The position numbers were made by a program, and so were the translations under genes. The notes below the pieces were generated by a model. The model worked only from the letters and a program-made list of their open reading frames with translations. It was not told where the DNA came from and did not search any database. 5,908 bases of DNA from Candidatus Vampirococcus lugosii (lineage in GTDB: Bacteria > Patescibacteriota > Gracilibacteria > Absconditabacterales > Absconditicoccaceae), in assembly GCF_018420025.1 (NCBI RefSeq), contig NZ_JAEDAM010000083.1, positions 1 to 5,908 of the forward strand, written 5' to 3'. Numbering within the stretch: position 1 is the first letter of the stretch; each line of letters begins with the position of its first letter. Below, piece by piece: positions 1 through 5,908 of this stretch.

Positions 1-320
1 ATTGCAGCTTGTTTAAGTATAGTAAATCATTTACCATATTTTTCTTCATTACCAGCAGCAGTAACCATTTGGAAAGCTCACCAAAGAAGTACTATTAATG
101 CTATAAATGCCATAATTCAAAGTACCCAGTTTATACCCTTTTGAATTACATCTAAAAATCATTCTCATTTCAAACTATCAGAACCAGGTGTATCAGGATT
201 AATTCATCAAGGATCTGCTCAAAATCATGATCTTGCACCAGGATCTTGAGCAAAAGATAATGATCATAAAGATAATATAAAAATAGATAACAATAAAATA
301 ATTTTCTTAATCATATCCAT
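1..320 (-). CDS. Small secreted pilin-like protein, a candidate TrbC/VirB2-type T4SS pilin of the kind common in CPR bacteria. The C-terminus is cut by the window edge.
   Basis: ATG at 320-318, with an alternative ATG at 314-312. The frame is open to position 1 with no TAA or TAG, and I count 10 in-frame TGA. Translation with TGA=G: MDMIKKIILLLSIFILSLGSLSFAQDPGARSGFGADPGGINPDTPGSDSLKGEGFLDVIQKGINWVLGIMAFIALIVLLWGAFQMVTAAGNEEKYGKGFTILKQAA... This shows a signal peptide (..SFA|QDP), a Gly/Pro-rich linker, then a hydrophobic helix followed by WGxFxMxTAxGxxxKxxK, which matches my recollection of small T4SS-pilin-like proteins. The family assignment comes from motif memory only. Confidence 0.6.
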
Positions 321-480
321 TAAATTATAATAAATAAATGTAACATTATTATACAAATATTTTTCAATAATTCAAGTAATTTTTATATATTTTTTATTTT
401 TTTTAATAAAACTAAACTATTTCTATAAAATTATAGTATAGAATTTTTATAACATTTTTTATATTTAAATATATATTAAA

Positions 481-2031
481 TTAAAATAATTCTATGAGGT
501 AAATTAATTTTTGTAAATTTCTATCTGACAATAAATCTTTTTTTGATTGATAAAAATCATTTAATTGTCATTCCAAATTATTAATTTGTAAATTTTCTAA
601 TATTTCATATAATGAATGTATTTTTTTTGTATCTTTTTGAGTTAATAAATAAAACTTTTCTTTATCAGTATTAATTTCTGTATCAATATTATTTTCTGTA
701 TCAATATTATTTTCTTTTTTTGTATAAATATCTTTTTCTGTATAATCCATTTTTAGATTTATTTTTTCTCATATATTTACATTTTTAGTTTCTCATTTAC
801 TGTTTATGAATTTTAAATTAATTTTTTTTAAATCTTCAATCATAGATTCTATTGAATTAGAATTTATATTACATATATCAAAATATTTACATAAAAAATC
901 ATTAAGTTCTGCTAAATTATTTTCATATGTAATATGATTTTCAATAAATCCTATAAATCAATCTCAAAGATTTTCTTTTAAAGATCTAGCAAGTATTTGA
1001 GGACATTTATTTATCAAATGATTCATATTATCATTTATATATTTATTTCTATGTTCAAAATCTTCAAATTTTATCCATCATTCTTTATAATGGCTTAAAT
1101 TAAGACATATTTTGTCTACTCCAAAATAACTATAATCTATTTCATTTCAATCTCAATTATCATCAAATGTTGGATCATAATATTTTCAATCCATTTTTAT
1201 CCAAGAATGCAAATATCAATCAACTCTTATATCACTGTTTAATATACTTTGTATCTCTCATACTATTCTTTCTCAATCAATTCATAAAAGTCTAGCAAAA
1301 AAAAGATAACTTAATACATATCAATCACAAACATTTTTTCATTTTTCCAAAAAATTTCATAATCTCCATGGTCCCATGTCTTTCGGTAGATTCTCTAATT
1401 TATTCAATATATCATAATCATATTCAGTATTGGAAATAATATATTCATAAATTGATTTTTTTAAATCTCATTTTTCTTTATTTAAATTATTTATTTGTTC
1501 CAAATTGGAATCAATTTTATCTTTATTTTCTTCAATATATTTTATATCAAAATTTGTATAATTATTCATTGATATATATAAGTTATTATTACTTACATAA
1601 CATTCATTTCATACATTTCATCAACCCAAAGCTTTTAAATCATAATTATTTACAAATAATAAATGTTCATATGCATCCATATATTTTTTATTTATTGTTA
1701 GTTGTTGACAAATAGATTTTTTTAATTTATTTTTTTTCCTGATTAATGCAGAATATTTATTTCATTCTTTCAAAATAAGTATATCAGAATTATCCAAAGA
1801 AAATTGATCTTTAAGTATTTGTTCATCCGTTTTATTTTCTATCATATAATATGATACACTTCATAAAATAATATAAGAATTTCATTGATTTGATGTATAA
1901 ATTTTGTTTGAATATATTCAGTCATTTATATCTATTATTTCATAATTTTTATTTAAATAATCAAAAAAATTAGCAAAACTCATTCAAAACATTATTCCCC
2001 AAAATATAAATAGACTTATTAATATTTTCAT
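481..2031 (-). CDS. Secreted or membrane-anchored transglutaminase-like (Cys-His-Asp papain-fold) domain protein with coiled-coil-like regions, 516 aa.
   Basis: ATG at 2031-2029 is the first ATG after an in-frame TAA six codons upstream. The stop is TAA at 483-481, and 1551 nt gives 517 codons. There is no in-frame TAA or TAG, and I count about 25 in-frame TGA. The provided 60 aa ORF (568-750) is the C-terminal part of this frame. The N-terminus MKILISLFIFWGIMFGMSFANF is hydrophobic and signal-like. Core motifs: EKGKNVCDGYVLSYLFFARLLGIDGERIVGEI...GYLHSWIKMDGKYYDPTFDD, matching the transglutaminase-like pattern G-x-C...R-x-x-G-I..V-x-G...H-x-W...D-P-T. The Cys codon is at 1329-1327. K/E/N-rich heptad-like stretches lie mid-protein and at the C-terminus. 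Confidence 0.8.
676..715 (-). repeat. In-frame 18 bp perfect tandem repeat of about 2.2 copies inside the 516 aa gene.
   Basis: The plus-strand unit ttctgtatcaatattatt occurs at 676-693 and again identically at 694-711, followed by a partial ttct at 712-715. It encodes ENNIDT-ENNIDT on the minus strand. A diverged third copy (EINTD) follows it in the protein. Confidence 0.9.
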
Positions 2032-2858
2032 ATTATTTTTATAAATTTAGTAAAAAAATTTAATTCATTTAATATTTCTTCCAAAATTTCATCATTATTT
2101 GGCTTTTCTATATCTATCCAAAAAATATATTCAAAAGGATTTTCTTTTGATGGTAAAGATTCTATTTTTGATAAATTAATATTTTTGGTAGCAAAAGATC
2201 ATAAACATTTATATAAAATAGCAGGTTCATCTTTTGTTTTGAATATAATACTTATTTTTCATTTTTTATTTTTGAAATTTTTTATAAATTCATTATTTTC
2301 AAAAATTTCATTATTCATAGATTTATCTTTTATTATAAGAAATCTTGTAGTATTTCATCATTGATCTTGTATGTCGCTATCCAATATATTTAATCAATAT
2401 ATTTCACTACAAAATCCAGATGCAATAGCTCATATACTATCATCTTTTGATTCTGAAATCATTTTGGCAGCTAGTGCTGTATCAGAAAATTCTTGCAATT
2501 TTATTCAATTATTATTTATATATTTTTCACATTGCATAAGTGCTTGAATATGACTATATACTTTTTTTATTTTTGATATATCTTTTGTTTTTGCAAGCAA
2601 TTTATGATTTATCATTTTGTAATATTCTCAAACAATTTCAACATCATTTTCATAAATATGATAAAAGTTTTCATATATAGGTCATGCATAACTATTTTCT
2701 ATAGGAATACATAATAGATTTTTATTATTAATTTTTTGGAAAACATCTTTGAACGAAAAATTTCAATAAATTGAAGTTTCAATATTTAAACTATTTTTTA
2801 ATAATTGTGATACTTCACTTGAATAAGAACCTATTATTCATTGATAATTTATTTTCAT
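2019..2858 (-). CDS. pheA: Prephenate dehydratase (monofunctional PDT catalytic domain plus C-terminal ACT domain), 279 aa.
   Basis: ATG at 2858-2856 and TAA at 2021-2019; 840 nt gives 280 codons. Translation with TGA=G: MKINYQGIIGSYSSEVSQLL...CIPIENSYAGPIYENF...EIVGEYYKMINHKLLAK...KVYSHIQALMQCEKYI...FSDTALAAKMI...IGAIASGFCSEIYGLNILDSDIQDQGGNTTRFLII...ISIIFKTKDEPAILYKCLGSFATKNINLSKIESLPSKENPFEYIFWIDIE...FIKIIGKY*. This matches PDT hallmarks as I recall them: YQG-x-x-G-S/A-x-S, P-I-E-N-S-x-x-G, G-E, SHPQAL-QC, DTA-AA, AIAS, Y-G-L, N-x-TRF, ESRP-x-x-x-NPWEY-F-x-D, and L-G-S-Y at the end. I count 12 in-frame TGA, and most sit on those conserved Gly positions. Confidence 0.9.
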
Positions 2859-2888
2859 ATACAATAATTTATTATATAAATTTTTTCT

Positions 2889-3794
2889 TTATTTCCATAT
2901 GATATGATCATCATCTCAAATTAATGGACTATTCAAAATTCTAAATTTTTTATTTGTATTCCATATATCAACTAATTTATCAAAATTTTTATCTACTTCC
3001 AACATTAAATTAGCTAGTTCATCAATTTCTTCAAAATCTTTTTCCGTAAATTTATCAAATTTATTTCAAATATAATATGGTGCTTGAAGATATAAAATTT
3101 CATTATTCATTAAACTATGAAAATCATAAAAAACAGCCCAAAGAACTGGTAATAATCATTTATAACCTCAAGCATTAATAAAATTATCAGCATTTAATTT
3201 TCATTGTCTAATTCATAACCAAGTATTTGCAGACCAATCAAATTTTTCTTCAGGAATATTATATTGATCAAAATCAAGGAAATCTTCAAAAAATCAATCA
3301 GCATCAAAATTAATCCATTTTTTTTGATTTTGGTCCCAATATTGATTTATCCAATGATCCCAACTTCAATCAGAAAAATATGGAGCAAATCATGAACGAA
3401 CTCTACAAGGAATATTTTTTGATTTCAAAATTGTTGCCATTAATATCGCAACATAACGACAAGTTACAACAATTTTATCTTCAACTTTTCTATCTTTATG
3501 AAATCATTTATCGTCAAGTCTTAATAATTCTGCAATCATTGAAACAGAATTAGGTAAGATATCATCTTCACATCTTAATCTATGCCATGGAAATTTTTCC
3601 ATATCTCAATAAATTAAATTTTTATTTGCATTTGTATTAAGATCTCTTAATGTTACTCTATGAATAATTTGATGACTTATTAAATTTCATAATTGTTTTA
3701 CATCATCTGGTAAGCTCTTTAAAAAATTTTCATAACAACCTGGATTTGTAAATACACTAAAATTTAAATAATGATTTAATATATTTTCATTCAT
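2889..3794 (-). CDS. Cytoplasmic-type transglutaminase-like domain protein (Cys-His-Asp core), 301 aa.
   Basis: ATG at 3794-3792 and TAA at 2891-2889; 906 nt gives 302 codons. I count 12 in-frame TGA and no TAA or TAG. Translation: MNENILNHYLNFSVFTNPGCYENFLKSLPDDVKQLGNLISHQIIHRVTLRDL...DKIVVTCRYVAILMATILKSKNIPCRVRSGFAPYFSDGSWDHWINQYWDQNQKKWINFDADGFFEDF...IGDDDHIIWK*. The pattern C-R-x-x-A...IP-x-R-V-R-x-G-F...D-H-W...W-x-x-F-D-A-D is the transglutaminase-like core arrangement. There is no N-terminal hydrophobic segment. Ten Trp are already encoded by TGG. Confidence 0.8.
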
Positions 3795-3945
3795 ACAAAA
3801 TAATATTTAGATATATAAATATCTTTATATATTATATTAATTTTTTAAAAAAACAATACAAAATAAAAAAAATATCAAAAATATAAAGATATGTTTAATA
3901 AATGATATTCAAAAAAGGAATATAAAATAAGTAATTTTAAATTAT

Positions 3946-4087
3946 GTAGTACAAAAAATATTTTTATTTTCTCGCAAATCCTTGATTTAAATCAAGATTT
4001 AGAAGAAAATAAAATTATAAAATTTGTGTACTACACAAATCTATTTTTATTTTCTTGCAAATCCTTGTCTAAATCAAGGATTTAGAA
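3946..4087 (+). repeat. Two tandem ~60 nt direct repeats in the divergent intergenic region. Function is unknown; they are candidates for a small-RNA or leader element.
   Basis: R1 (3946-4004) is gtagtacaaaaaatatttttattttctcgcaaatccttgatttaaatcaagatttagaa. R2 (4028-4087) is gtactacacaaatctatttttattttcttgcaaatccttgtctaaatcaaggatttagaa. By eye they are about 85% identical with a few indels, and a 23 nt AT-rich spacer separates them. Each copy contains a stem-loop built on the AAATCCTTG/CAAG(G)ATTT arms. Confidence 0.75.
3962..4014 (+). other. Extended hairpin in repeat copy R1.
   Basis: The outer 11 bp arms are perfectly complementary: ttttattttct (3962-3972) pairs with agaaaataaaa (4004-4014). 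They enclose the perfect 16 nt palindrome cttgatttaaatcaag (3981-3996). The structure is inferred from complementarity only. Confidence 0.55.
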
Positions 4088-4095
4088 ATTTTGTT
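4059..4095 (+). other. Stem-loop followed by a T-tract in repeat copy R2. It resembles an intrinsic terminator or attenuator on the plus strand, but no plus-strand gene lies upstream.
   Basis: A perfect 9 bp stem joins aaatccttg (4059-4067) to caaggattt (4075-4083), with the 7 nt loop tctaaat. The sequence agaaattttgtt follows at 4084-4095. On the minus strand no U-tract would follow the hairpin. Confidence 0.4.
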
Positions 4096-4186
4096 CTACA
4101 AAGATGAGGTTAAATTAAAATTTCTATTGATATTTTTTTATTTTTATATATTAAATGTTTAATTTATTGTATAAAATTTAATCTTA

Positions 4187-4558
4187 ATGATTATAAATAA
4201 AGAAAGATATTGAGATATCAATATTTGAAAATTAATTATATTATCAATATCGATAATATTGGCAGTATGGTTGATATGAATATTGTTATATTTCAATATA
4301 AAATACCAAAAAACGGTTGTGTTATACTCAGCATTATGAAATATAGATACTGCTTCTCAAATTTTAATAGATTTAGATATATGTGATGAAGATTCTAAAA
4401 ATATTAAAATTACTTATAATGCAATTTCTTCCAAATATACATTAGATTGTGACTTAATAGAATGAACTATTCAAGATTATAAAATACAAGAATTAACTGA
4501 TTTAAACACAATTAATGCTACGACATGAAAAGCAATTTATTCTATACCTGATAAATAA
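4187..4558 (+). CDS. Small single-pass membrane-anchored protein of unknown function, 123 aa (paralogue 1 of a tandem family).
   Basis: ATG at 4187 and TAA at 4556-4558; 372 nt gives 124 codons. Six in-frame TGA and no TAA or TAG. Translation: MIINKERYGDINIGKLIILSISIILAVWLIGILLYFNIKYQKTVVLYSALGNIDTASQILIDLDICDEDSKNIKITYNAISSKYTLDCDLIEGTIQDYKIQELTDLNTINATTGKAIYSIPDK*. It has one hydrophobic helix followed by an ~80 aa two-Cys domain. That domain is about 45% identical to the next gene over the ASQ..CDL core. Confidence 0.7.
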
Positions 4559-4572
4559 TTATCAAAAATATG

Positions 4573-4600
4573 TTGACTTATAAGATAATATATTTATTAT
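4573..4600 (+). promoter_or_regulatory. Candidate sigma70-type promoter for the 4635 gene.
   Basis: TTGACT (4573-4578), a 16 nt spacer, then TATTAT (4595-4600). The -10 element ends 34 nt upstream of the ATG at 4635. Matches to -10 elements are cheap in DNA this AT-rich, but the G/C-containing -35 hexamer is less so. Confidence 0.3.
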
Positions 4601-4634
4601 TAAGATAATAAATTTATATTTAAAATATATAATT

Positions 4635-5024
4635 ATGAGCAAAAATAAAAAGAATAATTCAAAAAAGCATATTAACGATTTTAAATTTTTGTTTATAATA
4701 TTTGTTGTAGCTATTATAACTATATTAACAATGGCTTGTTATTTTAAAAAAAATACTGTAGAAGTTTTTAGTTATTGAATGATGACTGATATAAATATAG
4801 CATCACAGACTATGATAGATTTTGATGTATGTAAAAAAGATTCGTCTCAAATTTCATTAGAATATAATAACATGAAAAATAATTATAATTTGAGTTGTGA
4901 TTTGAATTTATCGGAATTTGAGAAATATATTTGGAAAATACAAGAAAATCAAAATATTAAAATACTAAACATTAGTTCTACAGGAGCTATATATGAATAT
5001 AAATGATTAACAAAAAGTAATTAA
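4635..5024 (+). CDS. Small single-pass membrane-anchored protein of unknown function, 129 aa (paralogue 2).
   Basis: ATG at 4635 and TAA at 5022-5024; 390 nt gives 130 codons. The provided 75 aa ORF (4779-5006) is the interior of this frame, bounded on both sides by TGA codons. Translation: MSKNKKNNSKKHINDFKFLFIIFVVAIITILTMACYFKKNTVEVFSYGMMTDINIASQTMIDFDVCKKDSSQISLEYNNMKNNYNLSCDLNLSEFEKYIWKIQENQNIKILNISSTGAIYEYKGLTKSN*. It has a basic N-terminus, a TM helix, and the same two-Cys domain as paralogue 1, with 21 residues between the Cys in both. Confidence 0.75.
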
Positions 5025-5036
5025 TAAAAAAATCTA

Positions 5037-5064
5037 TTGAAAAATATATAAAATATTGTATACT
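5037..5064 (+). promoter_or_regulatory. Candidate sigma70-type promoter for the 5117 gene. It overlaps a TGTATACTACA box.
   Basis: TTGAAA (5037-5042), a 16 nt spacer, then TATACT (5059-5064) with TG at 5057-5058 directly abutting the -10 hexamer. The ATG at 5117 lies 52 nt downstream. The AT-rich background makes this weak. Confidence 0.25.
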
Positions 5065-5116
5065 ACAATTGAATAGTAATTATGCAATTTTTTATATATT
5101 TTTAAAAAAAATAAAT

Positions 5117-5908
5117 ATGTCAAATATATATTATATGTTAACATTTACAATAATGTTTAGTTTGGTAGTATTATTAGTTTTTACTATTAGGTCTTTTATG
5201 CTAACAAATGATGCTTATTATTGAGTAAGTTTTGTGTCTATCAATAAAAATTATCAAATAGATACTTTGGACAATATTGATTATGATTCTGAAAACATTA
5301 TTTTTGTAAAAAATATTCCTCAATCTTGTATAGATGATTCTAATCATTCTATATATTGTTTATCAGATTTAAAAAAAAAATGATGATTTTATAATGGAAA
5401 ATGGTTCAAAGGCGAAGATGTTGGTTCTATAAATAATAATTCTTGTAATATAATAGTAGAAAATTGAGAAAGTATACAAACTGCAATAGATAAAGCTAAA
5501 GAAGATTATGTAATATGTTTAAAATCTTGAAATTATGAAGGAGATTTGGAAATAACAAAAGAATGAATTGTTTTAATTAGTATAGGTGAAGATAATGTTC
5601 AAATAGAATGAGACATTGTCTTGTCTGGTGTAGATGAAGATGATTTTAAAATAATTAATATAAGTAATAATTCTTGTGATATAACTGTAGAAAATTGAGA
5701 AAGTATACAAACTGCAATAGATGATGCTCAAGAAGATTATGTGATATGTGTAAAATCTTGAACTTATAAAGAGAATTTAGAAATAGATAAAAAATGAATT
5801 GCTTTAATAGGTGTCGGTACAGATAGATCAATATTGGATGGTACAGATATTAATGAACATTGAATATATATTTATAATTTTGATAATATTGAAATTAAAA
5901 ATATTGAA
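5117..5908 (+). CDS. Membrane-anchored surface protein with a duplicated parallel beta-helix (pectin-lyase-fold, NosD/CASH-like) N-cap module. The 3' end runs off the window.
   Basis: ATG at 5117, open through 5908 for 264 codons. I count 11 in-frame TGA and no TAA or TAG. Translation: MSNIYYMLTFTIMFSLVVLLVFTIRSFMLTNDAYYGVSFVSINKNYQIDTLDNIDYDSENIIFVKNIPQSCIDDSNHSIYCLSDLKKKGGFYNGKWFKGEDVGSINNNSCNIIVENGESIQTAIDKAKEDYVICLKSGNYEGDLEITKEGIVLISIGEDNVQIEGDIVLSGVDEDDFKIINISNNSCDITVENGESIQTAIDDAQEDYVICVKSGTYKENLEIDKKGIALIGVGTDRSILDGTDINEHGIYIYNFDNIEIKNIE... The string SIQxAIDxAxxxDxIxVxxGTYxExLxIxKxIxLxGxG....ldG is the familiar start of right-handed beta-helix surface proteins. Confidence 0.85.
5435..5896 (+). 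repeat. Intragenic tandem duplication of a 231 nt (77 codon) unit, two copies.
   Basis: Copy 1 spans 5435-5665 and copy 2 spans 5666-5896, an offset of exactly 231 nt. The first ~95 nt of each copy differ at about 8 positions and include a 36 nt perfect run (5456-5491 = 5687-5722). The remainder is much more diverged but stays in register at the protein level. Confidence 0.85.

What the first reader, a model, noticed from the sequence alone, without database searches (positions are those of the whole stretch)
3944..4103. Pair of ~60 nt structured tandem repeats in the divergent intergenic region, possibly small RNAs, a leader or attenuator, or a protein-binding array
Two ~60 nt repeats of about 85% identity lie between the divergently oriented gene starts at 3794 (minus) and 4187 (plus). 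Each has a T-rich tract and a hairpin on the arms AAATCCTTG/CAAG(G)ATTT.

- Copy R2 has a perfect 9 bp stem with a 7 nt loop, followed by AGAAATTTTGTT. This is terminator-like on the plus strand, yet nothing coding lies upstream of it.
- Copy R1 has lost one G of the inner stem. It has a perfect 16 nt palindrome instead, plus an additional perfect 11 bp outer stem (3962-3972 with 4004-4014), giving a ~53 nt extended hairpin.

The G/C-containing stem stands out against the almost pure A/T background. Each copy retains a hairpin, although their loops and outer stems differ. That suggests selection on structure rather than on coding, and the two copies are in different reading frames.
Basis: seen in the sequence. 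Interest (0 to 1): 0.65.

Follow-up and report, generated by a model that had tools for sequence, protein, structure and literature searches.

The report
Duplicated palindromic control-region DNA module
Between two back-to-back operons of an uncultivated, very AT-rich bacterium that reads TGA as glycine lies a real, doubled ~80-nt palindromic DNA module that most likely binds regulatory proteins; it belongs to no described family, but it is an ordinary kind of feature and only three copies are available to test it.

Summary
Two copies of a non-coding unit, 83 nt apart, sit between g4 (start 3794, minus strand) and g5 (start 4187, plus strand). The genes only appear when TGA is read as Gly (code 25).

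Each module has three parts:
- a 9-bp dyad box, P (TGTA-S-TACA);
- an invariant T-tract;
- a 25-nt hairpin, H (AAATCCTTG-7-CAAGGATTT).

Positions 3945-4100 fold as one composite palindrome (z = -7 to -10).

Several readings fail:
- It is not a terminator: T-run before the stem, A-rich after.
- There is no Rfam match, no conserved leader ORF and no DnaA-box cluster.
- The GC-skew switch follows the coding strand.

A strain 99.5-100% identical across g2-g4 and the g4-upstream DNA has only one module. From the hairpin rightward, identity drops to ~80% and then homology ends. R1 and R2 are themselves only ~80% alike.

P fits the published GntR/FadR operator consensus. Every module also carries TTGATT-17/18-GAAAAT facing g4.

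Best reading (0.38): a DNA-level promoter/operator module, doubled in this strain, at the edge of a hypervariable segment. A MITE/REP-like repeat, an att-like site or an RNA element are not excluded. Three copies give no covariation. Interest is low to moderate.

The parts
3945..3953 (.). P1 box, TGTAGTACA: a 9-bp dyad (TGTA-G-TACA).
   Evidence: It fits the GntR/FadR-subfamily operator consensus NyGTM-N0-1-KACNy, with GT and AC 3 nt apart (PMC4494728). It matches the E. coli DgoR IR1 core TTGTAGTACAA at 10 of 11 positions (PMC11705089). It is identical in L003.
3959..3972 (+). T-tract of copy R1, TATTTTTATTTTCT.
   Evidence: The 13 nt ATTTTTATTTTCT are invariant in all three copies; at the first base L003 has G where the window has A at 3960. 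Its complement holds the -10-like GAAAAT (3971->3966, minus strand).
3976..4000 (.). Hairpin/dyad H1, 25 nt: AAATCCTTG ATTTAAAT CAAGATTT. A 12-bp near-palindrome with one bulged C; it contains the perfect 16-nt palindrome 3981-3996.
   Evidence: DNA fold -4.3 kcal/mol, z = -3.45. It holds the minus-strand -35-like TTGATT at 3995->3990.
4004..4014 (.). A-rich complement of the R1 T-tract. It forms the outer 11-bp stem with 3962-3972. Present only in copy R1.
   Evidence: Module 3945-4035 folds at -19.2 kcal/mol as DNA (z = -7.7). R2 and the L003 copy have no counterpart.
4023..4039 (.). P2 box: core TGTACTACA at 4027-4035, which is the reverse complement of P1, inside the perfect 17-bp dyad TTTGTGTA-C-TACACAAA. 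It is the centre of the composite palindrome.
   Evidence: (I15).
4042..4055 (+). T-tract of copy R2, TATTTTTATTTTCT.
   Evidence: Its complement holds the -10-like GAAAAT (4054->4049).
4059..4083 (.). Hairpin/dyad H2: AAATCCTTG TCTAAAT CAAGGATTT (9-7-9).
   Evidence: DNA fold -6.9 kcal/mol, z = -6.2. It holds the minus-strand -35-like TTGATT at 4077->4072.
4092..4100 (.). P3, TGTTCTACA: a degenerate P box with one mismatch.
   Evidence: It is not conserved in L003.
4084..4123 (+). Right tail of the module. It is ~80% identical to the tail of the single L003 copy, and homology to L003 ends near 4123.
3945..4100 (.). The whole composite: two modules sharing P2, forming one nested imperfect palindrome.
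   Evidence: (I1: arms 3976-4017 / 4042-4083, 83% complementary). The assembly of sample SRR13241708 is interrupted over exactly 3984-4083.
2892..3794 (-). Context: g4, a transglutaminase-like gene and the first gene of the leftward operon g4-g3(pheA)-g2-g1.
4187..4555 (+). Context: g5, a small membrane protein and the first gene of the rightward set g5-g6-g7. L003 lacks this set next to the element.

Best explanation
The element works as double-stranded DNA: a modular protein-binding control region for the operon that starts with g4, and possibly for the divergent right-hand unit as well.

Each module has three parts in a fixed order and spacing. The first is a 9-bp dyad box P (TGTA-S-TACA). 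The second is an invariant T-rich tract. The third is a 25-bp dyad H (9-bp arms around a 7-nt spacer).

Inferred mechanism. Read on the minus strand, the right half of H supplies a -35-like TTGATT. The complement of the T-tract supplies a -10-like GAAAAT, 17-18 bp away. This would be a weak sigma-70-type promoter pointing at g4. Box P would then lie at about +6 to +14, the position of a repressor operator, and its sequence fits the operator consensus of GntR/FadR-type dimeric regulators. H, which overlaps the -35 and the spacer, would be a second dyad site for another, or the same, dimeric protein.

This strain carries two modules in tandem and a near-identical strain carries one. The doubling is therefore a strain-level structural variant rather than a required feature. 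It most likely arose by recombination or template switching at the palindromes. The module also marks the edge of a hypervariable segment.

Shown: the anatomy, its statistical significance, the copy-number difference, the identity break, the fit to the operator consensus, and the failure of the terminator, leader and origin tests.

Inferred: that proteins bind, which proteins, and that the promoter-like hexamers are used.
For: 1. Position. The element lies in the middle of a 392-nt region between divergent gene starts.

2. Symmetry. It holds two kinds of short dyad-symmetric sites. P occurs 3 times in the element out of 4 matches in the whole window, against 0.61 expected (1 of 200 shuffles reaches 4).

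3. Operator fit. P1 and P2 satisfy the published FadR-subfamily consensus NyGTM-N0-1-KACNy, with GT and AC 3 nt apart (PMC4494728). [quoted passage not shown] The same survey describes GntR-type sites, single or double, near the middle of divergent intergenic regions.

4. What is conserved. Among the three copies it is sequence, not pairing potential. 13 of the 14 T-tract bases (ATTTTTATTTTCT) are invariant in all three copies, yet its complement exists only in R1.

5. Promoter-like sites. With TTG required in the -35 and A2/T6 in the -10, the only minus-strand sites in the intergenic region are TTGATT-17/18-GAAAAT, found in R1, in R2 and in the L003 copy.

6. Missing promoters. g4 and g5 have no promoter match of 10/12 or better. 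g1, g6, g7, a tRNA and the L003 RNA candidate all have one 20-70 nt upstream.

7. No RNA signals. There is no terminator, no Rfam family and no leader ORF.
Against: - No regulator gene (GntR or other) is present in the ~14 kb known from this organism.
- The promoter-like hexamers score only 8 of 12. They are partly forced, because G is rare outside the modules.
- A 9-11-nt match to an operator consensus can be chance. The two perfect P boxes are copies of one repeat unit, so they are not independent.
- Similarity between copies spans ~55-100 nt, including non-palindromic parts. That is more than separate binding sites would need and is typical of a repeat element.
- In R1 the right half-site of H is shifted by a 1-nt deletion.
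- The copy number differs between near-identical strains.
- The element lies exactly where near-identity between strains ends, which points as much to recombination as to regulation.
- Gracilibacteria are reported to have one of the highest inverted-repeat densities of any phylum (bioRxiv 10.1101/2024.09.29.615628), so palindromes there are cheap.
Confidence: 0.38

Rival explanations
1. The element is a miniature palindromic repeat (MITE-, REP/BIME- or PATE-like). It would be a ~80-100-nt unit with inverted terminal P boxes and an internal hairpin, present in several diverged copies in the genome. It would spread or persist selfishly and act as a substrate for recombination, creating copy-number variation and rearrangements.
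For: - The copies are ~80% alike over 55-100 nt, including non-palindromic parts, although the two genomes are 99.5-100% identical next door. That pattern suggests paralogous copies rather than in-place divergence.
- Module 1 is a near-complete palindrome bounded by P1 and P2 in inverted orientation.
- Copy number is 1 versus 2 between strains.
- Synteny ends at the element.
- An independent assembly breaks at both hairpins.
Against: - There are no further copies in the other intergenic regions of the ~14 kb known from this organism (nhmmer).
- There is no match in 596 Gb of genomes, 241 M metagenome records, IMG/VR, phages or plasmids beyond chance hairpins. These collections appear not to contain this lineage, so that absence is weak evidence.
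- No target-site duplication is visible.
- No transposase or RAYT gene is known.
- The location between two 5' ends is atypical for REPs.
Confidence: 0.24
2. H is a site-specific recombination site. It would be the core site of a tyrosine recombinase (9-bp arms around a 7-bp spacer). P boxes and the T-tract would act as accessory sites. The site would bound an exchangeable segment: g5-g7 in this strain, and a promoter plus a structured RNA in the other.
For: - The 9-7-9 architecture equals that of lox/FRT/dif/att core sites (established knowledge; sequence).
- The L003 copy looks like a hybrid: its left flank is R1-like with 1 mismatch, and its right arm and tail are R2-like.
- Near-identity between strains ends at or just before H, and unrelated DNA follows ~40 nt after it.
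- The neighbours are surface-type proteins, and the pilin gene g1 is also locally hypervariable.
Against: - No recombinase gene lies within the 14 kb known.
- The second boundary of the putative cassette is not on any contig.
- Mismatches between the strains already begin to accumulate left of H (3918, 3938, 3960), so the crossover cannot be placed in the spacer.
- Ordinary homologous recombination would also tend to resolve in the longest conserved stretch, which would give the same picture.
Confidence: 0.1
3. The element is a structured RNA. It could be a small RNA, a 5' leader of g4 or g5, or a processing or stability hairpin transcribed from the intergenic region.
For: - Folding is strong on both strands (z = -7.3 and -10.05).
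- The one arm substitution in the L003 copy (C to T) leaves a G.U pair on the plus strand.
- A 4-bp outer helix TTCT/AGAA is present in all three copies.
- In this strain R1 carries a plus-strand TTGATT-17-GAAAAT (3982-4010) that could drive a ~75-nt transcript ending at H2.
Against: - There is no Rfam match.
- There is no terminator: the T-run precedes the stem and A-rich sequence follows it, the reverse of the true terminators built on the same stem in phage contigs.
- There are 0 compensatory changes.
- The long hairpin is not conserved (the L003 module folds at z = -1.0).
- The R1-to-R2 transcript arrangement does not exist in the one-copy strain.
- There is no leader ORF on the g4 strand.
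Confidence: 0.12
4. The element has no function of its own. It would be a neutral by-product of hairpin-driven template switching or slippage in extremely AT-rich, inverted-repeat-rich intergenic DNA.
For: - The best single inverted repeat is not exceptional against shuffles (15 of 300).
- The phylum is reported as extremely rich in inverted repeats.
- Copy number varies between near-identical strains.
- The B' and P2 segments look like an inverted copy of the left flank (I1 and I8).
Against: - The direct repeat and the overall fold are far beyond shuffles.
- The 26-nt core is kept (1 difference between R1 and R2) while its surroundings differ by ~20% or are unalignable.
Confidence: 0.12
5. 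The element is the chromosomal replication origin, suggested by the GC-skew sign change and the divergent gene orientation at this point.
For: Cumulative GC skew has its minimum at ~3900-4050 and the genes diverge from there.
Against: - The skew follows the coding strand. In L003 it flips again at the uvrC-S1-S15 block (+0.274 to -0.245), and G exceeds C on every coding strand.
- There is no DnaA-box cluster: one 2-mismatch hit in the intergenic region, and the window-wide count is not enriched.
- There is no dnaA or dnaN nearby.
Confidence: 0.02

Closest known systems
GntR/FadR-subfamily operators, for example the two inverted repeats IR1 and IR2 bound by E. coli DgoR at the dgo promoter
   Same: The P boxes are A/T-flanked dyads with GT and AC 3 nt apart (GTA-S-TAC), as in the consensus NyGTM-N0-1-KACNy (PMC4494728). 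P1 matches the DgoR IR1 core at 10 of 11 positions (PMC11705089). There are two sites close together in a promoter region, in the middle of a divergent intergenic region.
   Different: No GntR-family gene is known near the element or anywhere in the 14 kb available. The boxes are 82 nt apart rather than adjacent. They are parts of a larger repeated unit that also holds a different 25-bp dyad (H). Binding is untested.
9-bp inverted-repeat operators such as CIRCE (TTAGCACTC-N9-GAGTGCTAA, bound by HrcA)
   Same: H has 9-bp perfect inverted arms around a short spacer and lies in a promoter region. This is a resemblance of architecture only, recalled from established knowledge.
   Different: The sequence is different, the spacer is 7 nt rather than 9, no heat-shock genes are nearby, and no HrcA is known here.
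Miniature palindromic repeat elements: Correia elements (Neisseria), ERIC/IRU (enterobacteria), RUP/BOX (pneumococcus), REP/BIME and IS200/IS605-derived PATEs
   Same: The element is a ~80-100-nt imperfect palindrome with inverted ends and an internal hairpin. It is intergenic, its copies differ by ~20%, and it is associated with copy-number change and a synteny break. Some of these families carry promoter-like hexamers and protein-binding sites, as this module may.
   Different: Multi-copy distribution, target-site duplication and a cognate transposase or RAYT are not demonstrated. Only three copies are known, all at one locus. There is no sequence similarity to any of these families.
Tyrosine-recombinase core sites (loxP, FRT, dif, att cores)
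   Same: H has two inverted 9-bp arms around a 7-bp spacer. The single copy in the related strain looks like a left/right hybrid, and synteny ends there.
   Different: No recombinase is known, no partner site is known, and the crossover point is not resolvable.
Rho-independent terminators
   Same: It is a short G/C-containing stem in AT-rich DNA. The very same stem (AAATCCTTG...CAAGGATTT) serves in canonical terminators in unrelated phage contigs.
   Different: Here the T-run lies 5' of the stem and A-rich sequence lies 3' of it, on both strands the reverse of what termination needs. No gene ends upstream of it.

Membership tests
Rho-independent (intrinsic) terminator | A G+C-rich stem-loop followed within 0-2 nt by a run of U. 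| tested here: not met
   The scan finds 0 terminator-like sites in 3700-4300. After H2 the plus strand reads AGAAATTTTGTT and the minus strand reads GCAAGAAAATAAAAAT. True terminators with the same stem have A-rich sequence 5' and a T-run 3'.
Rho-independent (intrinsic) terminator | Lies at the 3' end of a transcription unit. | tested here: not met
   Both neighbouring genes start here, at 3794 (minus) and 4187 (plus). No conserved ORF or RNA ends upstream of it.
Any described RNA family (Rfam 15) | A match to a covariance model at or near the gathering score. | tested here: not met
   The best hit over the element is the mir-54 model at 19.7 bits against a gathering score of 70, E = 3.4.
Amino-acid operon attenuator (pheA-type leader) | A short leader ORF rich in the regulatory codon, on the operon's strand, followed by a terminator/antiterminator. 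| tested here: not met
   There is no ATG-started ORF of 8 aa or more on the minus strand in 3795-4190, and no terminator.
Structured RNA in general | Base pairs maintained by compensatory changes across relatives. | tested here: inconclusive
   With 3 copies, 94.9% of cells are paired, there are 0 pairs with changes on both sides, and there is one C-G to U-G change. There are too few sequences to decide.
GntR/FadR-type operator | A palindrome matching NyGTM-N0-1-KACNy, A/T-rich flanks, GT and AC 3 nt apart. | tested here: met
   P1 is GTA-G-TAC and P2 is GTA-C-TAC, with A/T flanks. The consensus comes from PMC4494728. P1 matches the DgoR IR1 core at 10 of 11 positions. P3 (GTT-C-TAC) fails at one position.
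GntR/FadR-type operator | A cognate GntR-family regulator encoded in the genome, often adjacent. | not testable with these tools
   None is among the genes of the window, L003, L004 or L011. The rest of the genome is not available.
GntR/FadR-type operator | Demonstrated protein binding. | not testable with these tools
   Needs EMSA or DAP-seq.
MITE / REP-BIME / PATE repeat element | Many dispersed copies in one genome. | tested here: inconclusive
   There are no extra copies in ~14 kb of this organism. There are no related copies in the genome, metagenome, viral, phage or plasmid collections, but the lineage itself seems absent from them.
MITE / REP-BIME / PATE repeat element | Terminal inverted repeats. 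| tested here: met
   P1 and P2 are reverse complements, and module 3945-4035 is a near-complete palindrome. The L003 copy lacks the right-hand inverted end.
MITE / REP-BIME / PATE repeat element | A target-site duplication, or a conserved 5' tetranucleotide with a cognate transposase or RAYT. | tested here: not met
   There is no direct duplication flanking 3945-4100 (left flank ...AAATTA, right flank AAGATG...). There is no transposase in the known contigs.
Tyrosine-recombinase core site | Two inverted recombinase-binding arms around a 6-8-bp spacer. | tested here: met
   H2 is 9-7-9 and perfect. The L003 copy is 9-7-9 with one arm mismatch. H1 is shifted by one base.
Tyrosine-recombinase core site | A recombinase gene and a partner site; recombinant junctions. 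| tested here: inconclusive
   There is no recombinase in 14 kb. The L003 copy has a hybrid-like composition and identity breaks at the element. The far boundary is unknown.
Chromosomal replication origin (oriC) | A DnaA-box cluster, dnaA/dnaN neighbourhood and a replication-driven skew switch. | tested here: not met
   DnaA boxes are not enriched, with one 2-mismatch hit in the intergenic region. The skew follows the coding strand. The neighbours are unrelated genes.

The most novel reading that the evidence does not exclude
The module is the recognition site of a so far undescribed cassette-exchange or miniature mobile-element system in code-25 Patescibacteria. In this reading, H (9-7-9) is the crossover site and the P boxes and T-tract are accessory sites. 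Recombination between dispersed modules would swap whole promoter-bearing units next to a fixed operon: surface-protein genes g5-g7 in one strain, and a strongly structured ~340-nt RNA gene in another. That would generate strain-level surface and regulatory diversity in a minimal genome.
Probability: 0.08. Interest if true: 0.7.

Novelty: new member of a known kind. Interest (0 to 1): 0.3.

Why it matters
Almost nothing is known about transcription control or genome plasticity in Gracilibacteria/Absconditabacteria-type bacteria. They are uncultivated or episymbiotic, have tiny genomes and few regulators, and use a reassigned stop codon.

A concrete operator/promoter candidate with a recognisable regulator class would be a testable entry point into their gene regulation. 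If the module instead turns out to be a repeat element or a recombination site at the edge of a hypervariable surface-protein segment, it would bear on how these reduced genomes diversify between near-identical strains.

As the evidence stands, it is a well-documented but ordinary kind of intergenic palindromic repeat, known from a single population.

Tried and rejected
1. Table-11 ORFs are all short. I re-translated and found that TGA is a sense codon. It codes for Gly, not Trp: all 12 TGA positions of g4 are Gly in every homolog, and the window's own database protein is the Gly translation.

2. Exact-pattern scans for the H core in genome contigs and metagenome contigs gave one hit each. Both are chance matches in unrelated, GC-richer DNA without a hairpin.

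3. Viral contigs. The core plus its AGAA tail gave 0 hits. The T-tract plus left arm gave 0 hits. The bare 9-N-9 hairpin gave 50 hits, all unrelated hairpins or terminators with no flank similarity.

4. BLAST against the phage and plasmid collections gave no match.

5. Synteny through g4 homologs failed. g4 is 70-78% identical in DPANN archaea and many CPR phyla, in unrelated contexts, and none of those loci carries the module.

6. A search with g2 found no relatives outside this population.

7. A search with g5/g6 found only the same population.

9. The replication-origin idea is rejected.

10. A coding reading of the 64-aa ORF across the repeats is rejected.

11. 'Recent in-place tandem duplication' is rejected. 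R1 and R2 are ~80% alike, while the strains are 99.5-100% identical across g2, g3 and g4 and 98.7% in the g4-upstream DNA.

12. 'A transferred g2-g4 block ending at the element' is rejected. The strains are near-identical on both sides of the pilin's internal variable segment, so the pattern is local hypervariable spots in otherwise identical genomes.

13. A covariation test was run but is uninformative with three copies.
Full report
CONTEXT

The window is a complete 5,908-bp contig with about 20% G+C overall and about 14% in the intergenic region. Under the standard bacterial code it has only short ORFs. With TGA read as a sense codon it resolves into four leftward genes and three rightward genes.

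- Leftward (minus strand): g1, a T4SS-type pilin, 3..320; g2, 484..2031; g3, prephenate dehydratase, 2022..2858; g4, transglutaminase-like, 2892..3794.
- Rightward (plus strand): g5, 4187..4555; g6, 4635..5021; g7, 5117..5908 and beyond.

TGA codes for Gly, that is code 25. All 12 TGA positions of g4 are Gly in every homolog inspected. The database copy of the window's own protein is the Gly translation. A second database entry is the same protein with Trp at exactly those positions. The organism is therefore a code-25 Patescibacterium (Gracilibacteria/Absconditabacteria type).

THE OBSERVATION

- R2 has a perfect 9-bp stem (4059-4067 / 4075-4083) with a 7-nt loop.
- R1 lacks one G in the right arm (CAAGATTT, 3993-4000). 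It has a perfect 16-nt palindrome (3981-3996) and a perfect 11-bp outer stem (3962-3972 / 4004-4014).
- The two copies are 83 nt apart. They are 80% identical without gaps over 51 nt and about 85% with gaps.
- The direct repeat is far beyond chance: score 23 against a maximum of 19 in 300 dinucleotide shuffles of the intergenic region.
- The region folds far better than shuffles on both strands (z = -7.3 and -10.05).
- The best single inverted repeat, taken alone, is not remarkable for DNA this AT-rich (15 of 300 shuffles reach it).

A FULLER ANATOMY

The repeated unit is longer and more ordered than described. Each module consists of:

1. a 9-bp dyad box P: TGTAGTACA at 3945-3953, its reverse complement TGTACTACA at 4027-4035 inside a perfect 17-bp dyad, and a degenerate TGTTCTACA at 4092-4100;
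2. about 6 variable bases;
3. the T-tract TATTTTTATTTTCT;
4. CTYGC;
5. the 25-nt dyad H;
6. AGAA.

Three of the four matches to TGTASTACA (with at most 1 mismatch) in the whole window lie in the element, against 0.61 expected. P and H are palindromic, and R1 is followed by an A-rich complement of its own T-tract. As a result, 3945-4100 is one nested imperfect palindrome (I1, I8 and I15).

WHAT IT IS NOT

- Not a terminator. The scan finds none. The T-run lies before the stem and A-rich sequence lies after it, on either strand. The identical stem is used in genuine terminators in unrelated phage contigs, and there the flanks are the other way round.
- Not a known RNA family. Rfam has nothing, and there are no tRNA or tmRNA genes.
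- Not an attenuator. There is no ATG-started ORF on the g4 strand.
- Not coding. The only ORF across the repeats (64 aa, plus strand) is cut to 32 aa in the sister strain and shows only non-synonymous differences.
- Not an origin. The GC-skew sign change that coincides with the element is a coding-strand effect. On the longer sister contig the skew flips again at the next change of gene orientation, and G exceeds C on every coding strand. DnaA boxes are not enriched.

RELATIVES

Only one population carries this DNA. The H core is absent from the genome and metagenome collections apart from two chance matches. It is also absent from viral, phage and plasmid collections.

g4 is of no use for synteny. 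It is 70-78% identical in DPANN archaea and many CPR phyla, in unrelated contexts and without the module. g2, g5 and g6 have no relatives outside the population.

Three Logan contigs are informative.

- L004 is 99.7% identical to the window and stops at window position 3983, inside H1.
- L011 is identical apart from 3 bases at its end and starts at 4084, the first base after H2.
- That assembly is therefore interrupted over exactly the large inverted repeat (arms 3976-4017 / 4042-4083).
- L003 comes from a sister strain.

THE SISTER STRAIN

Identity of L003 to the window, by region:

- g2: 99.5%
- g3: 100%
- g4: 99.9%
- the 151 nt upstream of g4: 98.7%

L003 has a single module. Its P box and T-tract are R1-like, with 1 mismatch. 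Its hairpin is 9-7-9 with one C-to-T change in the left arm. Its right tail is R2-like but only about 80% identical. Homology ends near window 4123.

To the right, L003 has a perfect TTGACA-17-TATAAT promoter and a strongly structured ~340-nt RNA candidate in place of g5-g7.

The pilin gene g1 shows the same kind of local break. Its ends are 100% identical and an internal ~150-nt segment is 37-60% identical. The two strains are thus essentially identical except for local hypervariable spots, and the element marks the start of one of them.

Two inferences follow.

- R1 and R2 (~80% alike) cannot be a recent in-place duplication.
- The presence of two copies is not a conserved feature.

WHAT IS CONSERVED AMONG THE THREE COPIES

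The conserved parts are the P box, the T-tract and the small hairpin H with its TTCT/AGAA extension. The long R1 hairpin is not conserved. Folded as DNA, module 1 gives -19.2 kcal/mol (z = -7.7), module 2 gives -9.0 (z = -3.1), and the L003 module gives -6.1 (z = -1.0).

The T-tract is kept as sequence although its pairing partner exists only in R1. That argues for a sequence-level (DNA) constraint rather than a structural (RNA) one. The formal pair count gives 94.9% of cells paired, no compensatory change and one G.U. Three sequences cannot decide the question.

MECHANISM: BEST READING

The literature search turned up both P sequences in the operator of E. coli DgoR, a GntR/FadR-family repressor. 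Its IR1 core is TTGTAGTACAA (PMC11705089), and P1 (ATGTAGTACAA) matches it at 10 of 11 positions.

The family-wide survey (PMC4494728) gives the FadR-subfamily consensus as NyGTM-N0-1-KACNy, with A/T-rich flanks and, typically, 3 nt between GT and AC. P1 and P2 meet this consensus and P3 misses at one position. The same survey describes single or double GntR-type sites near the middle of divergent intergenic regions.

Every module also carries TTGATT-17/18-GAAAAT on the minus strand. With TTG required in the -35, these are the only minus-strand promoter-like sites in the region. They would place P at about +6 to +14 and H over the -35 and spacer.

g4 and g5 lack the good promoter matches (10/12 or better) found 20-70 nt upstream of g1, g6, g7, a tRNA and the L003 RNA candidate.

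I therefore read the module as a DNA-level promoter/operator unit of the g4 operon, present twice in this strain. The anatomy, the consensus fit and the negative tests are shown. Protein binding, the identity of the protein and the use of the hexamers are inferred.

Weak points:
- The hexamers score 8 of 12 and are partly forced by the scarcity of G.
- The P boxes are not independent, because they belong to one repeat unit.
- No regulator gene is known.
- The similarity between copies extends over more sequence than binding sites would need.

RIVALS

- A miniature palindromic repeat (MITE/REP/PATE-like) would explain the length of the similarity, the ~20% divergence between copies in near-identical genomes, the copy-number change, the synteny break and the assembly breaks. 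Its defining multi-copy distribution cannot be tested with 14 kb of genome. No target duplication or transposase is seen.
- A tyrosine-recombinase site would explain the 9-7-9 architecture and the hybrid-looking L003 copy. No recombinase or partner site is known. Homologous recombination resolving in the conserved core would give the same picture.
- An RNA element has only the G.U change and the folding energy in its favour.
- A neutral palindrome-driven duplication fits the phylum's reported very high inverted-repeat density (bioRxiv 10.1101/2024.09.29.615628). It does not explain the retention of the 26-nt core amid diverged flanks.

VERDICT

The element is real, non-coding, statistically solid and more elaborate than first described. 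Its kind, a palindromic control-region or repeat module in AT-rich intergenic DNA, is well known. No described family contains it.

The evidence base is three copies from one population. Interest is low to moderate (0.3). The most useful outcome is a short list of inexpensive tests on the full MAG and the reads that would separate the hypotheses.

Noticed in passing
window 1-5908 (whole contig): The contig uses genetic code 25 (TGA = Gly). Standard-code ORF calling fragments every gene. All 12 TGA codons of g4 align with invariant Gly in its homologs. Public gene calls of the sister contigs translate TGA as Trp (code 4), which gives proteins with about 4% wrong residues.
   Followed up: yes
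L003 about 140-513, minus strand (Logan SRR13241709_366), immediately right of the single module: A perfect TTGACA-17-TATAAT promoter is followed by a GC-richer ~340-nt RNA candidate. Its MFE is -103 kcal/mol (z = -9.6). It has a ~70-nt unpaired A-rich linker and a clean terminator. No Rfam match was found, even in a sensitive scan. It may be an undescribed structured RNA of code-25 bacteria, and it occupies the place of g5-g7.
   Followed up: partly
window 2892-3794 (g4): This 301-aa transglutaminase-like protein is 70-78% identical to proteins in DPANN archaea (contigs with fibrillarin, Nop, S17e and Rpr2) and in many CPR phyla, in unrelated gene contexts. That is unusually strong conservation across domains and suggests recent, repeated horizontal transfer. 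In some archaeal contigs a TnpB/Cas12f-like gene lies two genes away.
   Followed up: partly
window 3-320 (g1, T4SS-type pilin), especially 120-270: The gene is a mosaic between near-identical strains. The 3' 90 nt are 100% identical, an internal ~150-nt segment is only 37-60% identical, and the signal-peptide part is 80-87% identical. This looks like a hypervariable, probably surface-exposed segment replaced by recombination.
   Followed up: partly
window 3984-4083, compared with L004 and L011 (sample SRR13241708): In an independent assembly of the same strain, the left contig ends at 3983 and the right contig begins at 4084. The unassembled 100 nt coincide with the large inverted repeat (arms 3976-4017 / 4042-4083). 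Either there is allelic heterogeneity here or coverage is lost over a hairpin-forming palindrome.
   Followed up: partly
window 656-739 (inside g2): An 18-nt tandem repeat (3.3 copies, TTTTCTGTATCAATATTA) encodes the 'ENNIDT' repeats of g2. Seven of the 11 differences between the window and L004 fall in 656-692, so the repeat is a local hotspot of variation.
   Followed up: no
window 4187-5021 (g5, g6) and 5117-5908 (g7): g5 and g6 are tandem paralogs (38% identical): small single-pass membrane proteins with two conserved Cys. They have no homolog outside this population among 5.8 billion proteins. g7 has two internal ~75-aa repeats with a weak pectinesterase/beta-helix match. This looks like a strain-specific surface-protein set.
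   Followed up: partly
window 4581-4636 (between g5 and g6): A 20-nt tandem repeat (2.8 copies, TAAGATAATATATTTATAAT) overlaps the best promoter-like site for g6 (TTGACT-16-TATTAT, 4573-4600).
   Followed up: no
window 3814-3897 (proximal upstream region of g4): This is a second inverted repeat: a 12-nt perfect core ATATCTTTATAT (3819-3830) / ATATAAAGATAT (3881-3892), inside 34-nt arms that are 76% complementary. It lies next to a perfect minus-strand TATAAT at about 3830-3835, which is an alternative proximal promoter for g4. It is conserved in L003, but only trivially, because the whole stretch is 98.7% identical.
   Followed up: no
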